A DNA stretch of 64,000 nucleotides from an uncultured Bacteroidia bacterium (lineage in GTDB: Bacteria; UBA4055), in the NCBI GenBank assembly GCA_964648295.1, contig CAZYNH010000002.1, forward strand, positions 259,075 through 323,074, read 5' to 3'. A model generated the notes under the pieces. The model did no database searches. It was not told where the DNA came from and saw only the letters and a program-made list of their open reading frames with translations. Position 1 is the stretch's first letter, and each line of letters starts with the position of its first letter. Made by a program: the position numbers and the translations under genes. This document shows positions 10,882 through 62,879 of the stretch, one piece after another.

Positions 10882-10957
10882 GCCTTCTTAGCTCAGTCGG
10901 TAGAGCAAAGGACTGAAAATCCTTGTGTCCGTGGTTCAATTCCGCGAGGAGGCACCA
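10882..10957 (+). tRNA. tRNA-Phe(GAA) with encoded CCA
   Basis: 76-nt cloverleaf: GCCTTCT/AGGAGGC acceptor stem, D arm TAGCTCAGTCGGTAGAGC, anticodon arm AAGGA-CTGAAAA-TCCTT, T loop GGTTCAATTCC. Confidence 0.97.
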
Positions 10958-15769: not shown

Positions 15770-16369
15770 TCAGAAATTTCTCCTTTCCTCGAACGCCTGT
15801 TTTAATGTTATCTCGTCGGTAAATTCGATCTCCCCGCCAACCGGGATGCCTGTCGCAAGTCTTGTGATCTTAATATTCGTATCTTTCAGCTTCTCTGAGA
15901 TGTACAAGGCTGTAGTGTCTCCTTCGACCGAGTGGTTGAGAGCGATTATGAGCTCTTTTACCCTGTTTGCCGATACGCTGTTAAAAAGTGCGGGGAAATT
16001 TAGGGATGACGGCCCTATGCCGTCAAGAGGGCTTATCAGGCCGCCGATGACATGATAGATACCTTTATGAACATTCAGCTTCTCGAACATGTCGAGGTCG
16101 CTGAAATTTTCAACCACGCAGACAAGGGAATGGTCACGCAGAGGATCGGAACAGATGTCGCATACGCTCTTTTCTGTGAGATTATGGCATCTGCTGCATA
16201 ATCCCAGCCTGCTTTTGGCTTCAGTGACCGCTTCGGAAAGCTTTCGTGATACCTTTTCATCAGAATTTATCAGATAATATGATATCCTGCGCGCTGATTT
16301 CCTGCCTATTCCCGGGAGTCTAGCGAACGAATCTATCAGATTCTGGAGTATGTCTGATCTGCCGCCCAT
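15770..16369 (-). CDS. recR: Recombination mediator RecR
   Basis: LPGIGRKSA HhH, CSRC...CDIC Zn finger, Toprim VCVVE, synteny with dnaX-ebfC. Confidence 0.97.
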   Translation of the reverse strand: MGGRSDILQNLIDSFARLPGIGRKSARRISYYLINSDEKVSRKLSEAVTEAKSRLGLCSRCHNLTEKSVCDICSDPLRDHSLVCVVENFSDLDMFEKLNVHKGIYHVIGGLISPLDGIGPSSLNFPALFNSVSANRVKELIIALNHSVEGDTTALYISEKLKDTNIKITRLATGIPVGGEIEFTDEITLKQAFEERRNF

Positions 16370-16701
16370 CAGAATCCTGGGATCTTAAATCCGTCCGGCA
16401 GTTTCGGGACAATTTTTGTCATTTCTTCGCCGGATATTTTATCGGCCTCTTCGGAAGCGTGGTTCACTGCCGCCAGGATGAGGTCTTCCAGACCTTCCGA
16501 ATCATCGGGGTCGATAATTTTCGGATCGATTTTTATAGATAATATCTTTTTTTTCCCGTTCATACGGACTTTTACCATACCTCCGCCCGTTGTACCTTCC
16601 ACCTCAACTGTCTCCAGCGCTTTCTGCGATTTCTGCATATCCTCCTGCATTTTCTGAGCCTGTTTGAGCAGAGAGCCCATATCCATGTTCATTCCGGCCA
16701 T
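16369..16701 (-). CDS. ybaB: YbaB/EbfC nucleoid-associated protein
   Basis: LLKQAQKMQ, GGGMVKV, LEDLILAAVN; lies between dnaX and recR. Confidence 0.95.
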   Translation of the reverse strand: MAGMNMDMGSLLKQAQKMQEDMQKSQKALETVEVEGTTGGGMVKVRMNGKKKILSIKIDPKIIDPDDSEGLEDLILAAVNHASEEADKISGEEMTKIVPKLPDGFKIPGF

Positions 16702-16719: not shown

Positions 16720-18396
16720 TTAATCAATGAATTTACAGTTAAAGGGTTCCTCAAATAGGAATTTGAGCTGCGGAGCCTTTGAAAGCAGTTCGGCTTTCTT
16801 CTCCTCGGCCGACCTTTTAACATCTTTTTTTACTTTTATTATCCTTTCGGACTGCTTAATAGTGCCTTCCTCGAACTCGATTTTCAGATCAATAAGCCCG
16901 AAAAAAGAATTAAGCTCCTTTTCTATCTCCGCTTTTTTCGAATCGCAGAGGTTTTTGAATACCTTGTCTTTTTTATCAAATTTTATTTTTAGAATACGGT
17001 CGCCGATAATCTCTGTAGGAAGTCCGAATTCAAGAACACCCAGCCTTGAGTTTGCCGATGTTAAAGCATTCACGAATTCTTCCCAGCGGGATATCAGGGT
17101 CTGGATCGTAACTTCGGAGAGTGTCGGAGTTTCAGGCTGAGTTACGGGGTCAGGAGTTTTTTTTTTGTCTTCTTCCGGTAAAGCTGCCGCCTGTGTCTGC
17201 GGTATATGCCCGATCCGGGAGGAAATATCTTTTATTATCTCATCTATATCTATCTGGAGATCGCCTTCGATCATGGAAATTTTTTTTATTATCTCCTCGA
17301 TTTTTGCCGCGGGCTCATGATGAAGTATCTTTAGAAGGATTATCTCAAAGTCCATTCTCTGGAAAGGCGATGTTTTGAGTTTCTGAACAGACTGGCTGAG
17401 TATATCTATAAACAGCAGAATGTCTTTTTCCCCGAATTTGTCTTTATACCGTCTTAGTCTTGAAGCGCTTTCCGACGACATATCCAGAATTCTCGCGTCA
17501 TTAACTGTTTTCAGAATGAGAAGGTCCCTGAAAAATTCCATCAGACCCTTTATATATGCAGTAATATGAAGGCCTTTTCCGAAAAGTCCGTCAATATAAT
17601 CCATTAAAATTCCGGTATCTTTTGAAAGGACTATATCGGTCAGTTCAAAGAATGATTCAGTCTGCGGAACGCCCAGCGCGTCGGCGGTCTTTTCCGCTGT
17701 GATCCTGTTGCCCGAAAAAGCTATTACCTGATCTAAAGCCGACTGTGAATCTCTCACGGATCCGTCTCCCGCCTTGGCGAGCATTATGAGCGAGGACTCG
17801 TCTATTTCAACGCCCTCTTTTCCGCAGATATCCTTAAGAGCCCTGCTTAGAATCTCAATGTCAACCCGCTTGAAGTCGTGGCGCTGGCATCTGGAAAGTA
17901 TCGTGGCCGGAACCTCGTTCACCTCAGTAGTCGCAAAAATAAAAGTGGCATGTTCAGGAGGTTCTTCAAGCGTCTTTAAAAGGGCGTTGAAAGCCTGGTT
18001 GGTAAGCATATGGACTTCGTCTATTATGTATATCTTCCTGCGGCTTTTAGCCGGCGAGAATTTAATGTCGTCCCTCAGGTCGCGGATCTCGTCAATACCT
18101 CTGTTGGACGCTCCGTCGATCTCTTTTACATCGAGGCTGTTGCCCTGATCTATCTCCACGCAGTTAGAGCAGACTCCGCACGGTTTTGGGGTTACTCCAG
18201 TTTCGCAGTTCAGGCATTTTGCGAGTATCCTTGAAATTGTGGTCTTGCCCACACCTCTCGGTCCCGTGAGAAGATATGCGTGATGTACCTTGTTGTTCTT
18301 AATGGCGTTGGTGAGCGTGGTGGTAACATGCTCCTGTCCGATCACGTCCTCGAATGTCAGCGGCCTGTATTTTCTGGCTATAACCAGGTAGCTCAT
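16720..18396 (-). CDS. dnaX: DNA polymerase III subunit gamma/tau
   Basis: ARKYRP, GPRGVGKTT Walker A, Zn-binding Cys, IIDEVHML, SRC motif. Confidence 0.98.
   Translation of the reverse strand: MSYLVIARKYRPLTFEDVIGQEHVTTTLTNAIKNNKVHHAYLLTGPRGVGKTTISRILAKCLNCETGVTPKPCGVCSNCVEIDQGNSLDVKEIDGASNRGIDEIRDLRDDIKFSPAKSRRKIYIIDEVHMLTNQAFNALLKTLEEPPEHATFIFATTEVNEVPATILSRCQRHDFKRVDIEILSRALKDICGKEGVEIDESSLIMLAKAGDGSVRDSQSALDQVIAFSGNRITAEKTADALGVPQTESFFELTDIVLSKDTGILMDYIDGLFGKGLHITAYIKGLMEFFRDLLILKTVNDARILDMSSESASRLRRYKDKFGEKDILLFIDILSQSVQKLKTSPFQRMDFEIILLKILHHEPAAKIEEIIKKISMIEGDLQIDIDEIIKDISSRIGHIPQTQAAALPEEDKKKTPDPVTQPETPTLSEVTIQTLISRWEEFVNALTSANSRLGVLEFGLPTEIIGDRILKIKFDKKDKVFKNLCDSKKAEIEKELNSFFGLIDLKIEFEEGTIKQSERIIKVKKDVKRSAEEKKAELLSKAPQLKFLFEEPFNCKFID
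17157..17166 (-). other. A10 homopolymer in the dnaX linker, candidate slippage/frameshift site
   Basis: GAC AAA AAA AAA ACT; one extra A gives AAC TCC TGA, one fewer A gives CTC CTG ACC CCG TAA. Confidence 0.55.
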
Positions 18397-18566: not shown

Positions 18567-19157
18567 ATGTATTACGATACTCTCATACTCAAAAACCTCC
18601 TTTCGGATTATTCATCGCCGAAATCAAAACTTACTTTTCTCGCAAGATCGGGCGAATACATCAGGATACGGCGCGGGCTTTATATAAAAAAAGGCGAATA
18701 CAATCCGAAAACACTCGCGAATATTATCTACGGTCCCTCGTATATTTCGTTTGAATATGCGCTTTCGATTTACGGCATGATACCTGAAAGAGCGGAAACC
18801 GTCACATCGGCTGTTTACAATAAAAATAAAGATAAGGAATTCGAAACCCCGGCAGGCAGGTTCACATACAAATATATTAATGCCTCGGTTTATTTCTACG
18901 GTATAGAACGATACGAAGAGAATGGAGAACCATATCTGATCGCCTCAAAGGAAAAAGCTCTCTGCGATCTGCTTTACAAGATAAAAAGTGCCGATGCCGG
19001 AATCGGGATTGAAACGCTTCTTTTCGACGATCTCAGGATAGCTGAAAATGAATTTATGAAGCTGAGATTGAATGATATAAAGACACTTGCTCCGCTTTAT
19101 AACAGAACTGTCCATATCCGGATGCTCGATTTTTTAAAAAAGAGGAAAAAACTATGA
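18567..19157 (+). CDS. Type IV TA antitoxin, AbiEi-like
   Basis: N-terminal wHTH-like IRIRRGLY, PSYISFEYALSIYGMIPE, IASKEKALCD; 4-nt overlap with the toxin gene. Confidence 0.85.
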   Translation: MYYDTLILKNLLSDYSSPKSKLTFLARSGEYIRIRRGLYIKKGEYNPKTLANIIYGPSYISFEYALSIYGMIPERAETVTSAVYNKNKDKEFETPAGRFTYKYINASVYFYGIERYEENGEPYLIASKEKALCDLLYKIKSADAGIGIETLLFDDLRIAENEFMKLRLNDIKTLAPLYNRTVHIRMLDFLKKRKKL

Positions 19158-20017
19158 AAAGCGCCGTTCTGAATATGCTTGAAAAATATAAATGCGTTAC
19201 GACCGACGATTACAGGAACGCTCTAAAGGAGATTATTCAGGAAATAGCTTTACTAGGGCTTTACCGCGCGAACTTCTTTTCAAAAGCCGCCTTTTACGGA
19301 GGATCCGCGCTCAGAATATTCTACGGGACAAGAAGATTTTCCGAAGATCTCGATTTTTCTTTGATAGCTGCCGATGCCAAATTCGATATTTCTCAGTATT
19401 GCGATGCGGTAAAAGAAGAACTCGGAGCGTACGGCTTTAAAATGGAAGTTGAAAAAAAGATCAAATCTTTCGATTCGAATATAGAGTCGGCGTTTATAAA
19501 GGGCGGAACGAAGATCCAGATAATGAATATCACATCCGCCATTCCCGGAATAGAGAAAATGCACAGGAACGAAAATCTGAAGATAAAGCTGGAAGTTGAC
19601 ACTAATCCTCCATCCGGAGCAGGATTTGAGGTCAGATACCACCTGTCGCCGGTACCATATTCCGTTCAGCTTTACGATATTTCATCGTTGTTTGCGGGAA
19701 AACTTCATGCCGTTCTATGCAGGAATTGGGGTGGAGGAAGATCTAAGGGAAGAGACATTTACGATCTCGTATGGTATTTATCGCAAGATGCAAAACCGAA
19801 CCTTGAGCATCTTTCAGCAAGGATGAGACAGACAGGTCATTTTAGTGCGGAAAAGAAACTGACCGCTGACGAATTGAGATCAATGCTGGTCGAAAAATTC
19901 AGCGGAATGGATTTTAAAGCCGCTAAAAAGGATGTGGAACCGTTCATCAGAGACGCTAGGGAACTTGATCTTTGGTCAAAGGAATTCTTCATATCAATAA
20001 TTCAGGACAAACTTTAA
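19154..20017 (+). CDS. Type IV TA toxin, AbiEii-family nucleotidyltransferase
   Basis: FYGGSALRIFYG.RRFSEDLDF NTase motif, KLEVD, GKLHA, KGRDIYD. Confidence 0.9.
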   Translation: MKSAVLNMLEKYKCVTTDDYRNALKEIIQEIALLGLYRANFFSKAAFYGGSALRIFYGTRRFSEDLDFSLIAADAKFDISQYCDAVKEELGAYGFKMEVEKKIKSFDSNIESAFIKGGTKIQIMNITSAIPGIEKMHRNENLKIKLEVDTNPPSGAGFEVRYHLSPVPYSVQLYDISSLFAGKLHAVLCRNWGGGRSKGRDIYDLVWYLSQDAKPNLEHLSARMRQTGHFSAEKKLTADELRSMLVEKFSGMDFKAAKKDVEPFIRDARELDLWSKEFFISIIQDKL

Positions 20018-42044: not shown

Positions 42045-42052
42045 CGCACTTT

Positions 42053-42144
42053 GCCGGGACCTGTGCAATGGAGACTCGGGGAACGGGTCAGGACCTAACG
42101 GTAGCAGCCACACCCGAATATCCATGTGTTGCAGTAATCCCGGC
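42053..42144 (+). ncRNA. ffs: Small bacterial SRP RNA (4.5S)
   Basis: Long hairpin GCCGGGA/TCCCGGC, TGGA/TCCA, TCGGG/CCCGA; helix-8 signature GAAC..GTCAGG-ACC-TAAC-GGT-AGCAGC; own promoter and trailing T run. Confidence 0.9.
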
Positions 42145-42182
42145 TTTTTGTTATAACCAGGAAAAACTTGAGGGCACGCGAA

Positions 42183-62799: not shown

Positions 62800-62879
62800 G
62801 TTTAAAAAATAATTTTTTTTTGTTTATTTTAAAAATTTCCTGTTATTATATTGGAACAGACAGTTATCGGGGAGGATTT

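What the first reader, a model, noticed from the sequence alone, without database searches (positions are those of the whole stretch)
17142..17175. Candidate tau/gamma switch: A10 run in the dnaX linker with stops in both shifted frames
Seen: codons 411-414 read AAA AAA AAA ACT, the longest homopolymer I noticed in any CDS here, in the Pro/Glu/Thr-rich linker after the clamp-loader core. One extra A gives K-K-K-N-S-stop (~415 aa); one fewer A gives K-K-K-L-L-T-P-stop (~417 aa). Known: Thermus thermophilus makes gamma by transcriptional slippage on a dnaX A-run, and E. coli by -1 frameshifting at a similar position. Inference: independent use of this recoding in a poorly studied lineage.
Basis: partly seen in the sequence, partly recalled or inferred. 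Interest (0 to 1): 0.7.

Follow-up and report, generated by a model that had tools for sequence, protein, structure and literature searches.

The report
Conserved poly-A slip site in dnaX
The DNA-replication gene dnaX of this uncultivated bacterium (Candidatus Delongbacteria) has a run of ten A's that all its relatives keep at the DNA level, most likely so that copying errors at the run produce a second, shorter protein from the same gene; this trick is already known from Thermus and some other bacteria.

Summary
dnaX (16720..18396, minus strand, 558 aa) has an A10 run at 17157..17166 (codons 411-414), the longest homopolymer in the window. It lies about 40 codons after clamp-loader domains I-III. 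One extra A gives a 415-aa product and one fewer gives 417 aa (about 46 kDa, against 62.9 kDa for tau).

The run is not chance. All 17 Delongbacteria-clade dnaX genes recovered (13-14 lineages at 85-90% identity) have A9-A11 at this spot with tau in frame. The encoded peptide (KKKT, QKKKP, EKKNP, EKKTP, KKKN) and the reading phase both change. Lysine elsewhere is only 75% AAA, and none of 15 other conserved Lys columns is all-AAA. Stops in both shifted frames are closer than expected.

No SD-like element, hairpin or Rfam DnaX element is conserved, so the E. coli-type frameshift cassette is not present. The anatomy matches the Thermus thermophilus cassette (transcriptional slippage). No RNA or protein data were available.

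"Independent use" is not supported. In 78 unselected dnaX genes, 10 carry A>=9 in the same zone (about 80-fold enrichment), mostly FCB-group bacteria, and Antonov et al. 2013 reported A10 dnaX genes in Chlorobi and Bacteroidetes.

Verdict: real and probably functional; a new member of a known kind.

The parts
16720..18396 (-). dnaX CDS (tau, 558 aa, 62.9 kDa) in a single open frame
   Evidence: ORF list; Pfam DNA_pol3_delta2, DNAX_ATPase_lid and DNA_pol3_gamma3; E = 1.7e-86 to E. coli gamma/tau structures
17284..18396 (-). Codons 1-371: clamp-loader core, domains I-III, shared by the tau and gamma-like products
   Evidence: Pfam matches cover residues 20-371; residues 1-365 align with E. coli gamma 1-364
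17110..17283 (-). Codons 372-429: variable Pro/Glu/Thr-rich linker that contains the slip site
   Evidence: In the clade protein alignment only the K-run block is conserved within this stretch
17157..17166 (-). A10 run, the proposed slip site (codons 411-414, phase 0)
   Evidence: A9-A11 kept in 17 of 17 clade genes; all Lys codons in the run are AAA, whereas 0 of 15 control Lys columns are all-AAA
17150..17152 (-). TGA stop in the -1 frame, reached after insertion of one A or a -1 ribosomal shift; gives the 415-aa product
17142..17144 (-). TAA stop in the +1 frame, reached after deletion of one A; gives the 417-aa product
16723..17109 (-). Codons 430-558: tau-only C-terminal domain, absent from the short products and ending in the clade-conserved motif APQLKFLFEEPFNCKFID
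   Evidence: Alignment A1; AlphaFold model with pLDDT 75.7; only weak fold similarity to DnaA domain I, DciA and E. coli tau C-terminal domain
15770..16701 (-). Downstream ybaB (16369..16701) and recR (15770..16369): conserved dnaX-ybaB-recR synteny, context only
   Evidence: Pfam; the same gene order is seen in relatives

Best explanation
The A10 run is a programmed slip site of the Thermus thermophilus type. Standard decoding of dnaX gives full-length tau (558 aa). While transcribing the ten A's (ten T's in the template), RNA polymerase realigns the nascent RNA and makes a share of mRNAs with one or more extra or missing A's. Any mRNA whose run length is not 10 plus or minus a multiple of 3 puts ribosomes into a frame that stops 1-3 codons after the end of the run. 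That yields a gamma-like protein of 415 or 417 aa, which keeps clamp-loader domains I-III and lacks the C-terminal tau-only domain. Shown here: the anatomy, the nucleotide-level conservation and the absence of E. coli-type stimulators. Inferred: that slippage happens in this organism, that it is mainly transcriptional, that the short product is stable and used, and the ratio of the two products. Ribosomal -1 shifting or sliding on the same run may contribute.
For: 1. The position is right: about 40 codons after domain III, and 17 codons from the position equivalent to the E. coli site.
2. All 17 clade genes, which form 13-14 lineages at 85-90% amino-acid identity with a minimum pairwise identity of 49%, carry A9 (1), A10 (12) or A11 (4) with tau in frame.
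3. The run survives changes of peptide (KKKT, QKKKP, EKKKP, EKKNP, EKKTP, KKKN) and of phase (0 or 1), so selection acts on the nucleotides and not on a Lys motif.
4. Lys codons outside the run are 74.6% AAA (665 of 891). None of 15 other conserved Lys columns is all-AAA, while every Lys codon in the run is AAA.
5. Both shifted frames close early. The larger of the two distances lies at a mean percentile of 0.13 (0.5 expected by chance), and the window is at 0.05.
6. The run is never shorter than 9, the length at which bacterial RNA polymerase slips efficiently and at which selection against runs in genes becomes evident (PMC1088944; PMC6260861). Only 7 would be needed for a ribosomal heptamer.
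7. The flanks show no conserved SD-like element and no excess structure (mean z +0.14 upstream, +0.10 downstream), and there is no Rfam DnaX element.
8. The same feature is enriched about 80-fold in the post-domain-III zone of 78 unselected dnaX genes (0.67 per kb against 0.008 per kb per strand).
9. The Thermus precedent has A9, stops in both non-zero frames and a 1:1 tau:gamma ratio (PMC1088944; PMC5009743).
Against: There are no transcript or protein data for any Delongbacteria. Every run of 9 or more A's also contains an in-phase A_AAA_AAA heptamer, so a ribosomal contribution cannot be excluded from sequence. Long A/T runs are not obviously avoided elsewhere in this lineage: 11 runs of 9 or more occur in 139 kb outside the site, several of them intergenic or at gene starts. 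Baranov et al. caution that this pattern can go with slippage-resistant polymerases. Per frame, the stop-distance signal is modest (mean percentiles 0.25 and 0.33). One clade member has 17 codons to the +1-frame stop (L090). The exact predicted short products are not in the 15-billion-protein collection, which is neutral.
Confidence: 0.6

Rival explanations
1. The run acts mainly at the ribosome. A -1 programmed frameshift on the in-phase A_AAA_AAA heptamer, or ribosome sliding on iterated AAA codons, sends ribosomes into the -1 frame and to the TGA at 17150..17152. This gives the 415-aa product from unedited mRNA.
For: An in-phase A_AAA_AAA heptamer exists in all 17 sequences whatever the phase. 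The -1-frame stop is very close, at a median of 1 codon after the run. E. coli dnaX uses -1 frameshifting at an equivalent position. Ribosomes slide on homopolymeric A stretches (PMC4363877).
Against: The E. coli stimulators are absent: there is no conserved SD-like element, no hairpin (mean z about 0) and no Rfam match. A_AAA_AAA is much less shift-prone than A_AAA_AAG in E. coli (PMC5009743), and no clade member ends the run in G. The run is always 9 or more where 7 would do. The +1 frame is also closed early, which a pure -1 mechanism does not require.
Confidence: 0.15
2. The run is conserved for a reason unrelated to making a second product, for example a DNA-level A-tract function or a mutationally favoured low-complexity patch in a Lys-rich linker. 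Any truncated product would then be unused noise, and gamma, if it exists, would be made another way, for example by proteolysis as in Caulobacter.
For: There are no expression data. AAA is the preferred Lys codon at 75%. Other A7-A9 runs occur in the Lys-rich C-terminal part of these genes. Proteolytic production of gamma exists in Caulobacter.
Against: The peptide and phase change while the run stays. None of 15 control Lys columns is all-AAA. The other A-runs in the gene are not conserved in position and contain AAG in relatives (columns 533 and 534). The enrichment is specific to the zone just after domain III across unrelated phyla, at about 80-fold. Stops close to the run in both frames are not expected under this view. 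No terminator or promoter-like feature coincides with the T10 on the + strand.
Confidence: 0.2
3. The run is a chance homopolymer or an assembly artefact in this one contig.
For: About 0.27 runs of 10 or more A/T are expected per 64 kb from composition alone (my estimate).
Against: The identical protein is encoded on two contigs and is held by three sources. Seventeen of 17 relatives from independent assemblies have the run, always in frame.
Confidence: 0.02

Closest known systems
Thermus thermophilus dnaX transcriptional-slippage cassette (Larsen et al. 2000, as described in PMC1088944 and PMC5009743)
   Same: Tau is encoded in one ORF. A homopolymeric A run lies in the sense strand after the clamp-loader core (A9 in Thermus, A10 here). 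Stops are close by in both non-zero frames, and even a CCTGA shortly after the run is shared (Thermus GAG-A9-GCCTGA; here GAC-A10-CTCCTGA). No flanking stimulators are needed.
   Different: The run is one base longer and the lineage is unrelated and mesophilic-looking (44% G+C). The position is about 74% of the way through the gene (codon 411 of 558). Slippage and the two products were shown experimentally for Thermus and not here.
Two-ORF (reversed) dnaX with A7-A10 runs in Chlorobi, Bacteroidetes and Coraliomargarita (Antonov et al. 2013, PMC3711429)
   Same: An A10 run at the end of the gamma-equivalent part of dnaX, in lineages of or near the FCB group. The authors proposed the same slippage mechanism. 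I saw one such case, L050 from Chlorobium.
   Different: In those genes the zero frame stops just after the run and slippage is needed to make tau. Here, and in all 17 clade members, tau is in frame and slippage would make the short form.
E. coli-type dnaX -1 programmed ribosomal frameshift cassette (Rfam DnaX element)
   Same: The same gene, an equivalent position (codons 411-414 against 428-430), a Lys-codon slippery sequence, and a -1-frame stop almost at once. The expected outcome is the same: a gamma that lacks the tau C-terminus.
   Different: There is no A_AAA_AAG heptamer, no SD-like element upstream, no stem-loop downstream and no Rfam match. The +1 frame is also closed.
Caulobacter crescentus DnaX processing by ClpXP
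   Same: It yields a shorter DnaX that lacks the C-terminal region.
   Different: It is post-translational and needs no slippery sequence. It would not explain synonymous-site conservation of an A run.

Membership tests
Thermus-type dnaX transcriptional-slippage cassette | The gene is dnaX and tau is encoded by one uninterrupted ORF | tested here: met
   558-aa ORF with Pfam DnaX domains; tau is in frame in 17 of 17 relatives
Thermus-type dnaX transcriptional-slippage cassette | Uninterrupted run of about 9 or more A in the sense strand, downstream of clamp-loader domain III | tested here: met
   A10 at codons 411-414 with domain III ending near residue 371; A9-A11 in all relatives
Thermus-type dnaX transcriptional-slippage cassette | Stop codons close by in both non-zero frames | tested here: met
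   TGA 1 codon and TAA 3 codons after the end of the run; across the clade they are closer than background, mean percentile 0.13
Thermus-type dnaX transcriptional-slippage cassette | The run is under purifying selection at the nucleotide level | tested here: met
   Peptide and phase vary while the run persists; 0 of 15 control Lys columns are all-AAA
Thermus-type dnaX transcriptional-slippage cassette | The mRNA population is heterogeneous in the number of A's at the run | not testable with these tools
   No transcript reads are available; the exact predicted short products are absent from the protein collection, which is uninformative
Thermus-type dnaX transcriptional-slippage cassette | Two protein products, tau and gamma, accumulate | not testable with these tools
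   Needs a western blot or proteomics
E. coli-type dnaX -1 PRF cassette | A_AAA_AAG slippery heptamer | tested here: not met
   The run is followed by C (T in one relative), never by G; only A_AAA_AAA is present
E. coli-type dnaX -1 PRF cassette | Shine-Dalgarno-like stimulator upstream of the heptamer | tested here: not met
   No AGGA, GGAG or GAGG in the 22 nt upstream in the window; such a motif is present in only 3 of 17 sequences, and no upstream column is conserved
E. coli-type dnaX -1 PRF cassette | Stable stem-loop downstream | tested here: not met
   The downstream 60 nt give z = -0.58 in the window and a mean z of +0.10 over 17 sequences against mononucleotide shuffles
E. coli-type dnaX -1 PRF cassette | Match to the Rfam DnaX frameshifting element | tested here: not met
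   No match at the gathering threshold or at E <= 10
Two-ORF (reversed) dnaX of Antonov et al. 2013 | The zero frame stops just after the run and tau needs a frame change | tested here: not met
   The zero frame continues for 147 more codons here; compare L050 from Chlorobium, where the zero frame stops after 9 codons
tau domain V (Pol III alpha-binding) in the part lost from the short product | The C-terminal domain has the fold of the E. coli tau C-terminal domain | tested here: inconclusive
   Model pLDDT is 75.7. No hit reaches E <= 0.001. Weak hits are to DnaA domain I (TM 0.75 on the target), DciA, tau in 5fku_E (TM 0.53/0.57) and 2aya (TM 0.48/0.49). Pfam finds nothing there.

The most novel reading that the evidence does not exclude
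The in-frame A9-A11 run after domain III is not a curiosity of Thermus. It may be one of the commonest ways bacteria make a gamma-like DnaX, shared by (or repeatedly evolved in) Delongbacteria, Ignavibacteriota, Bacteroidota, Fibrobacteria, Leptospira and some Deltaproteobacteria. Changes of run length (9, 10 or 11) could tune the tau:gamma ratio, and single-base changes could flip genes between the in-frame and the two-ORF arrangement. In-frame cassettes escape frameshift-gene finders, so their spread has probably been underestimated.
Probability: 0.4. Interest if true: 0.5.

Novelty: new member of a known kind. Interest (0 to 1): 0.35.

Why it matters
Why bacteria keep two forms of DnaX is still an open question (bioRxiv 10.1101/2022.11.10.516041). 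Each further lineage that conserves a dedicated device for making the short form strengthens the case that gamma matters. This finding adds an uncultivated candidate phylum. It also gives an unusually clean comparative signature, in which the run is kept while the peptide and the phase drift. The small unselected survey suggests that in-frame poly-A cassettes in dnaX are much more common (about 13% of diverse genes) than the few published cases imply. For annotation, dnaX in these genomes should carry a note that two products are likely. Assemblies or long reads that show A9 or A11 here should not be called pseudogenes without checking.

Tried and rejected
It returned only relatives at 35-47% identity and no Delongbacteria. 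I reused those loci as an unselected background set.
2. The metagenome scan with a clade-specific C-terminal alignment gave only 7 loci.
3. Rfam at the gathering threshold and at E <= 10 found no frameshift element.
4. A search for flanking stimulators found no conserved column beyond CTCC.GAA downstream, no SD-like element and no structure signal. The shuffles were mononucleotide, not dinucleotide.
5. I considered the T10 as a + strand terminator and rejected it (0 terminator-like sites).
6. I considered a conserved KKK protein motif and rejected it because the peptide and phase vary.
7. I looked for truncated variants in public assemblies. The exact predicted gamma sequences are absent. The short cluster members P0129 and P0130 end at residue 354, not at the run, and P0133 is unrelated.
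8. The fold search of the C-terminal domain gave only weak hits.
9. The original Thermus paper (PMC26496) is not held. Its content is cited second-hand from PMC1088944, PMC5009743 and PMC6260861.
10. Only one tRNA (Phe) lies in the window, so the tRNA-Lys repertoire, which bears on ribosomal shiftiness, could not be assessed.

Full report
**Observation.** The gene at 16720..18396 on the minus strand is a 558-aa dnaX. Pfam finds DNA_pol3_delta2, the DnaX ATPase lid and gamma/tau domain III over residues 20-371. Residues 1-365 align one-to-one with residues 1-364 of E. coli gamma/tau structures (E = 1.7e-86). The A10 run is at 17157..17166 and starts in phase 0 at codon 411. It is the longest homopolymer in the window; the next longest are two 9-mers. 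One extra A gives ...KKKNS-stop (415 aa, 46.4 kDa, TGA at 17150..17152). One fewer A gives ...KKKLLTP-stop (417 aa, 46.7 kDa, TAA at 17142..17144). Full-length tau is 62.9 kDa. A single A10 in 64 kb is not remarkable in itself: I estimate about 0.27 such runs from composition alone.

**Lineage and relatives.** The closest database proteins (47-79% identity) are labelled Candidatus Delongbacteria, an uncultivated candidate phylum. In a protein alignment of the 50 closest homologues, the linker after domain III varies freely in length and sequence. The exception is a short block, typically D-K-K-K-T-P-E, present in most of the closer relatives. I obtained DNA for 16 clade relatives: 7 from a metagenome scan with a clade-specific C-terminal alignment and 9 from exact-protein look-ups. 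With the window they form 13-14 lineages at 85-90% amino-acid identity. Minimum pairwise identity is 49% and the median is 62%.

**Conservation is at the nucleotide level.** All 17 sequences have an uninterrupted A run at this spot (one A9, twelve A10, four A11), always with tau in frame. In the more distant members the peptide changes to QKKKP, EKKKP, EKKNP, EKKTP or KKKN. The run then starts in codon position 2 instead of position 1, yet a run of 9-11 A remains. Outside the run, Lys is encoded by AAA only 74.6% of the time (665 AAA, 226 AAG). As a control for relatedness I took the 15 other alignment columns that are Lys in at least 15 of 16 full-length sequences. Every one of them has at least one AAG, and several have AAG in the majority, whereas every Lys codon in the run is AAA in every sequence. 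Anchored alignments show no conserved column upstream of the run. Downstream, only CTCC.GAA is conserved. So the conserved element is the run itself.

**Shifted-frame stops.** Counted from the end of the run, the -1 frame closes after a median of 1 codon and the +1 frame after a median of 3. The larger of the two distances lies at a mean percentile of 0.13 of all positions in the same genes, where 0.5 is expected by chance; the window is at 0.05. Taken per frame the signal is weaker, with mean percentiles of 0.25 and 0.33. One relative, L090, has 17 codons in the +1 frame.

**Which mechanism.** The E. coli cassette needs A_AAA_AAG, an SD-like sequence upstream and a hairpin downstream (PMC3711429; PMC5009743). 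None of these is present:
- The run is never followed by G.
- SD-like tetramers occur upstream in only 3 of 17 sequences and not in the window.
- Folding energies of the 50 nt upstream and the 60 nt downstream are no lower than those of shuffles, with mean z of +0.14 and +0.10.
- Rfam gives no match, even at E <= 10.

Three features remain: a bare run that is always 9 or longer, both alternative frames closed, and no dependence on flanking sequence. That is the anatomy of the Thermus thermophilus dnaX cassette. There, an A9 run makes RNA polymerase produce mRNAs with variable numbers of A, and nearby stops in both non-zero frames give gamma in about a 1:1 ratio with tau (PMC1088944; PMC5009743). 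Nine is also the length at which selection against runs in genes becomes evident in many genomes (PMC1088944). It is the length from which enterobacterial RNA polymerase slips in both directions, including on the Thermus dnaX run in E. coli (PMC6260861). I therefore favour transcriptional slippage as the main route.

A ribosomal contribution cannot be excluded. Every run of 9 or more contains an in-phase A_AAA_AAA heptamer, and ribosomes are reported to slide on iterated AAA codons (PMC4363877). One caveat is that long A/T runs are not clearly avoided elsewhere in the Delongbacteria DNA I hold: 11 runs of 9 or more occur in 139 kb, several of them intergenic or at gene starts. Baranov et al. 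note that lineages without such avoidance may have slippage-resistant polymerases.

**What the short product would lack.** Residues 430-558 form a clade-conserved domain that ends in APQLKFLFEEPFNCKFID. Pfam does not recognise it. An AlphaFold model (pLDDT 75.7) has no significant PDB match. Its weak hits are coherent with a replication-protein fold:
- DnaA domain I (TM 0.75 on the target)
- DciA
- the tau C-terminal domain in the E. coli Pol III complex (5fku_E, TM 0.53/0.57)
- 2aya (TM about 0.49)

The idea that this is the polymerase-binding part of tau is plausible but not shown.

**How special is this?** The failed genome scan gave 80 dnaX loci from very diverse bacteria, chosen without regard to the linker. 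In 78 usable loci, the 70-codon zone after domain III holds 11 A runs of 9 or more, in 10 loci. That is 0.67 per kb, against 0.008 per kb per strand in the remaining 429 kb of the same loci, or about 80-fold enrichment. The carriers are Ignavibacteriota (2), Bacteroidota (4), Fibrobacteria, Chlorobium, Leptospira and a Desulfobacteraceae member. No Firmicutes locus has one. All have early stops in the shifted frames. The Chlorobium gene is the reversed type: the zero frame stops after 9 codons, and one extra A opens 212 more codons. That reversed type was described by Antonov et al. 2013, whose Figure S3 aligns A10 runs from Chlorobi, Flavobacterium, Cytophaga, Capnocytophaga and Coraliomargarita with the Thermus A9. 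Two near-outgroups of the clade also have runs at other linker positions (A10 at codon 395 in L097, A9 at codon 523 in L098). A third has only A8 (L099). The cassette may be inherited from a common ancestor with FCB-group bacteria or may have evolved repeatedly, and because the linkers cannot be aligned I cannot tell which.

**What is missing.** No RNA or protein evidence could be obtained. The exact predicted short proteins are not in the 15-billion-protein collection. The short members of the relatives' clusters break at residue 354, not at the run. No paper links Delongbacteria with recoding.

**Verdict.** The feature is real, conserved and almost certainly selected as a nucleotide run. Its most likely role is Thermus-type production of a gamma-like DnaX of about 46 kDa (confidence 0.6). 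Ribosomal shifting as the main route (0.15) and a non-recoding reason for the conservation (0.2) are the rivals. It is a new member of a known kind in a little-studied phylum and of moderate interest. The most useful by-product is the indication that in-frame poly-A cassettes in dnaX are widespread and under-annotated.

Noticed in passing
window 18567..20017 (+): An AbiEii nucleotidyltransferase toxin gene (19154..20017, Pfam PF08843, E = 7.7e-31) sits directly upstream of dnaX. It overlaps a 196-aa upstream partner ORF (18567..19157) that has no Pfam hit. Relatives have other genes at this place (Peptidase_C1, ClpB, CitF), so this looks like an inserted type IV toxin-antitoxin or abortive-infection module.
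   Followed up: partly
window 26923..26934 (+): The second-longest run (A9, 26926..26934) is the sequence ATG-AAAAAAAAA at the start of a PASTA-domain ORF (26923..27705). That ORF overlaps the stop of the preceding ORF (26333..26926). A slip-prone run at codons 2-4 could modulate expression.
   Followed up: partly
window 62813..62821: A T9 run lies in a region with only short, doubtful ORFs. Its coding status and any function were not examined.
   Followed up: no
L083 ~1605 and ~5735; L085 ~1594, ~1607 and ~5735; L086 ~1605 and ~5734: Three closely related Delongbacteria contigs share further A9-A10 runs. One is 25-100 nt upstream of the dnaX start, and another is about 2.4 kb downstream of dnaX.
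   Followed up: no
L018, L020, L048 (background dnaX loci): Trichlorobacter, a deltaproteobacterium and a Nitrospirales MAG have A10 runs only 38-45 codons before the tau stop, 140-190 codons after domain III, again with early stops in both shifted frames. Slippage there would remove only the extreme C-terminus, which differs from the gamma-type truncation.
   Followed up: no
L099 1501..3249 (P0050, labelled Cloacimonadota): This near-outgroup dnaX has only an A8 run, at codon 448 at the end of the linker. The run is preceded 3 nt upstream by GAGGAGGA, a strong SD-like sequence, so this may be a different (ribosomal) variant of the switch.
   Followed up: no
proteins P0129/P0130 (354 aa) and P0122 (120 aa), ENA contigs of about 2.0-2.2 kb: A relative's dnaX appears split into an N-terminal piece ending at residue 354 (inside domain III, not at the run) and a C-terminal piece starting after the run. 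This may be an assembly error or a disrupted gene.
   Followed up: partly
window 16723..17109 (-), model m48a0709b001f: The tau-only C-terminal domain is invisible to Pfam. It gives weak but thematically consistent fold hits to DnaA domain I, DciA and E. coli tau domain V, hinting at a divergent member of that KH-like replication-protein fold.
   Followed up: partly
window 42052..42148 (+) and 10882..10957 (+): A bacterial small SRP RNA and a tRNA-Phe(GAA) are the only Rfam or ARAGORN RNA genes in the window. No tRNA-Lys is present to inform on ribosomal shiftiness.
   Followed up: no
protein cluster of P0012: A 57-aa protein with no similarity to DnaX (P0133, with two CxxC pairs) is listed as a member of a DnaX 90% cluster. 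This is probably a clustering artefact in the collection.
   Followed up: no
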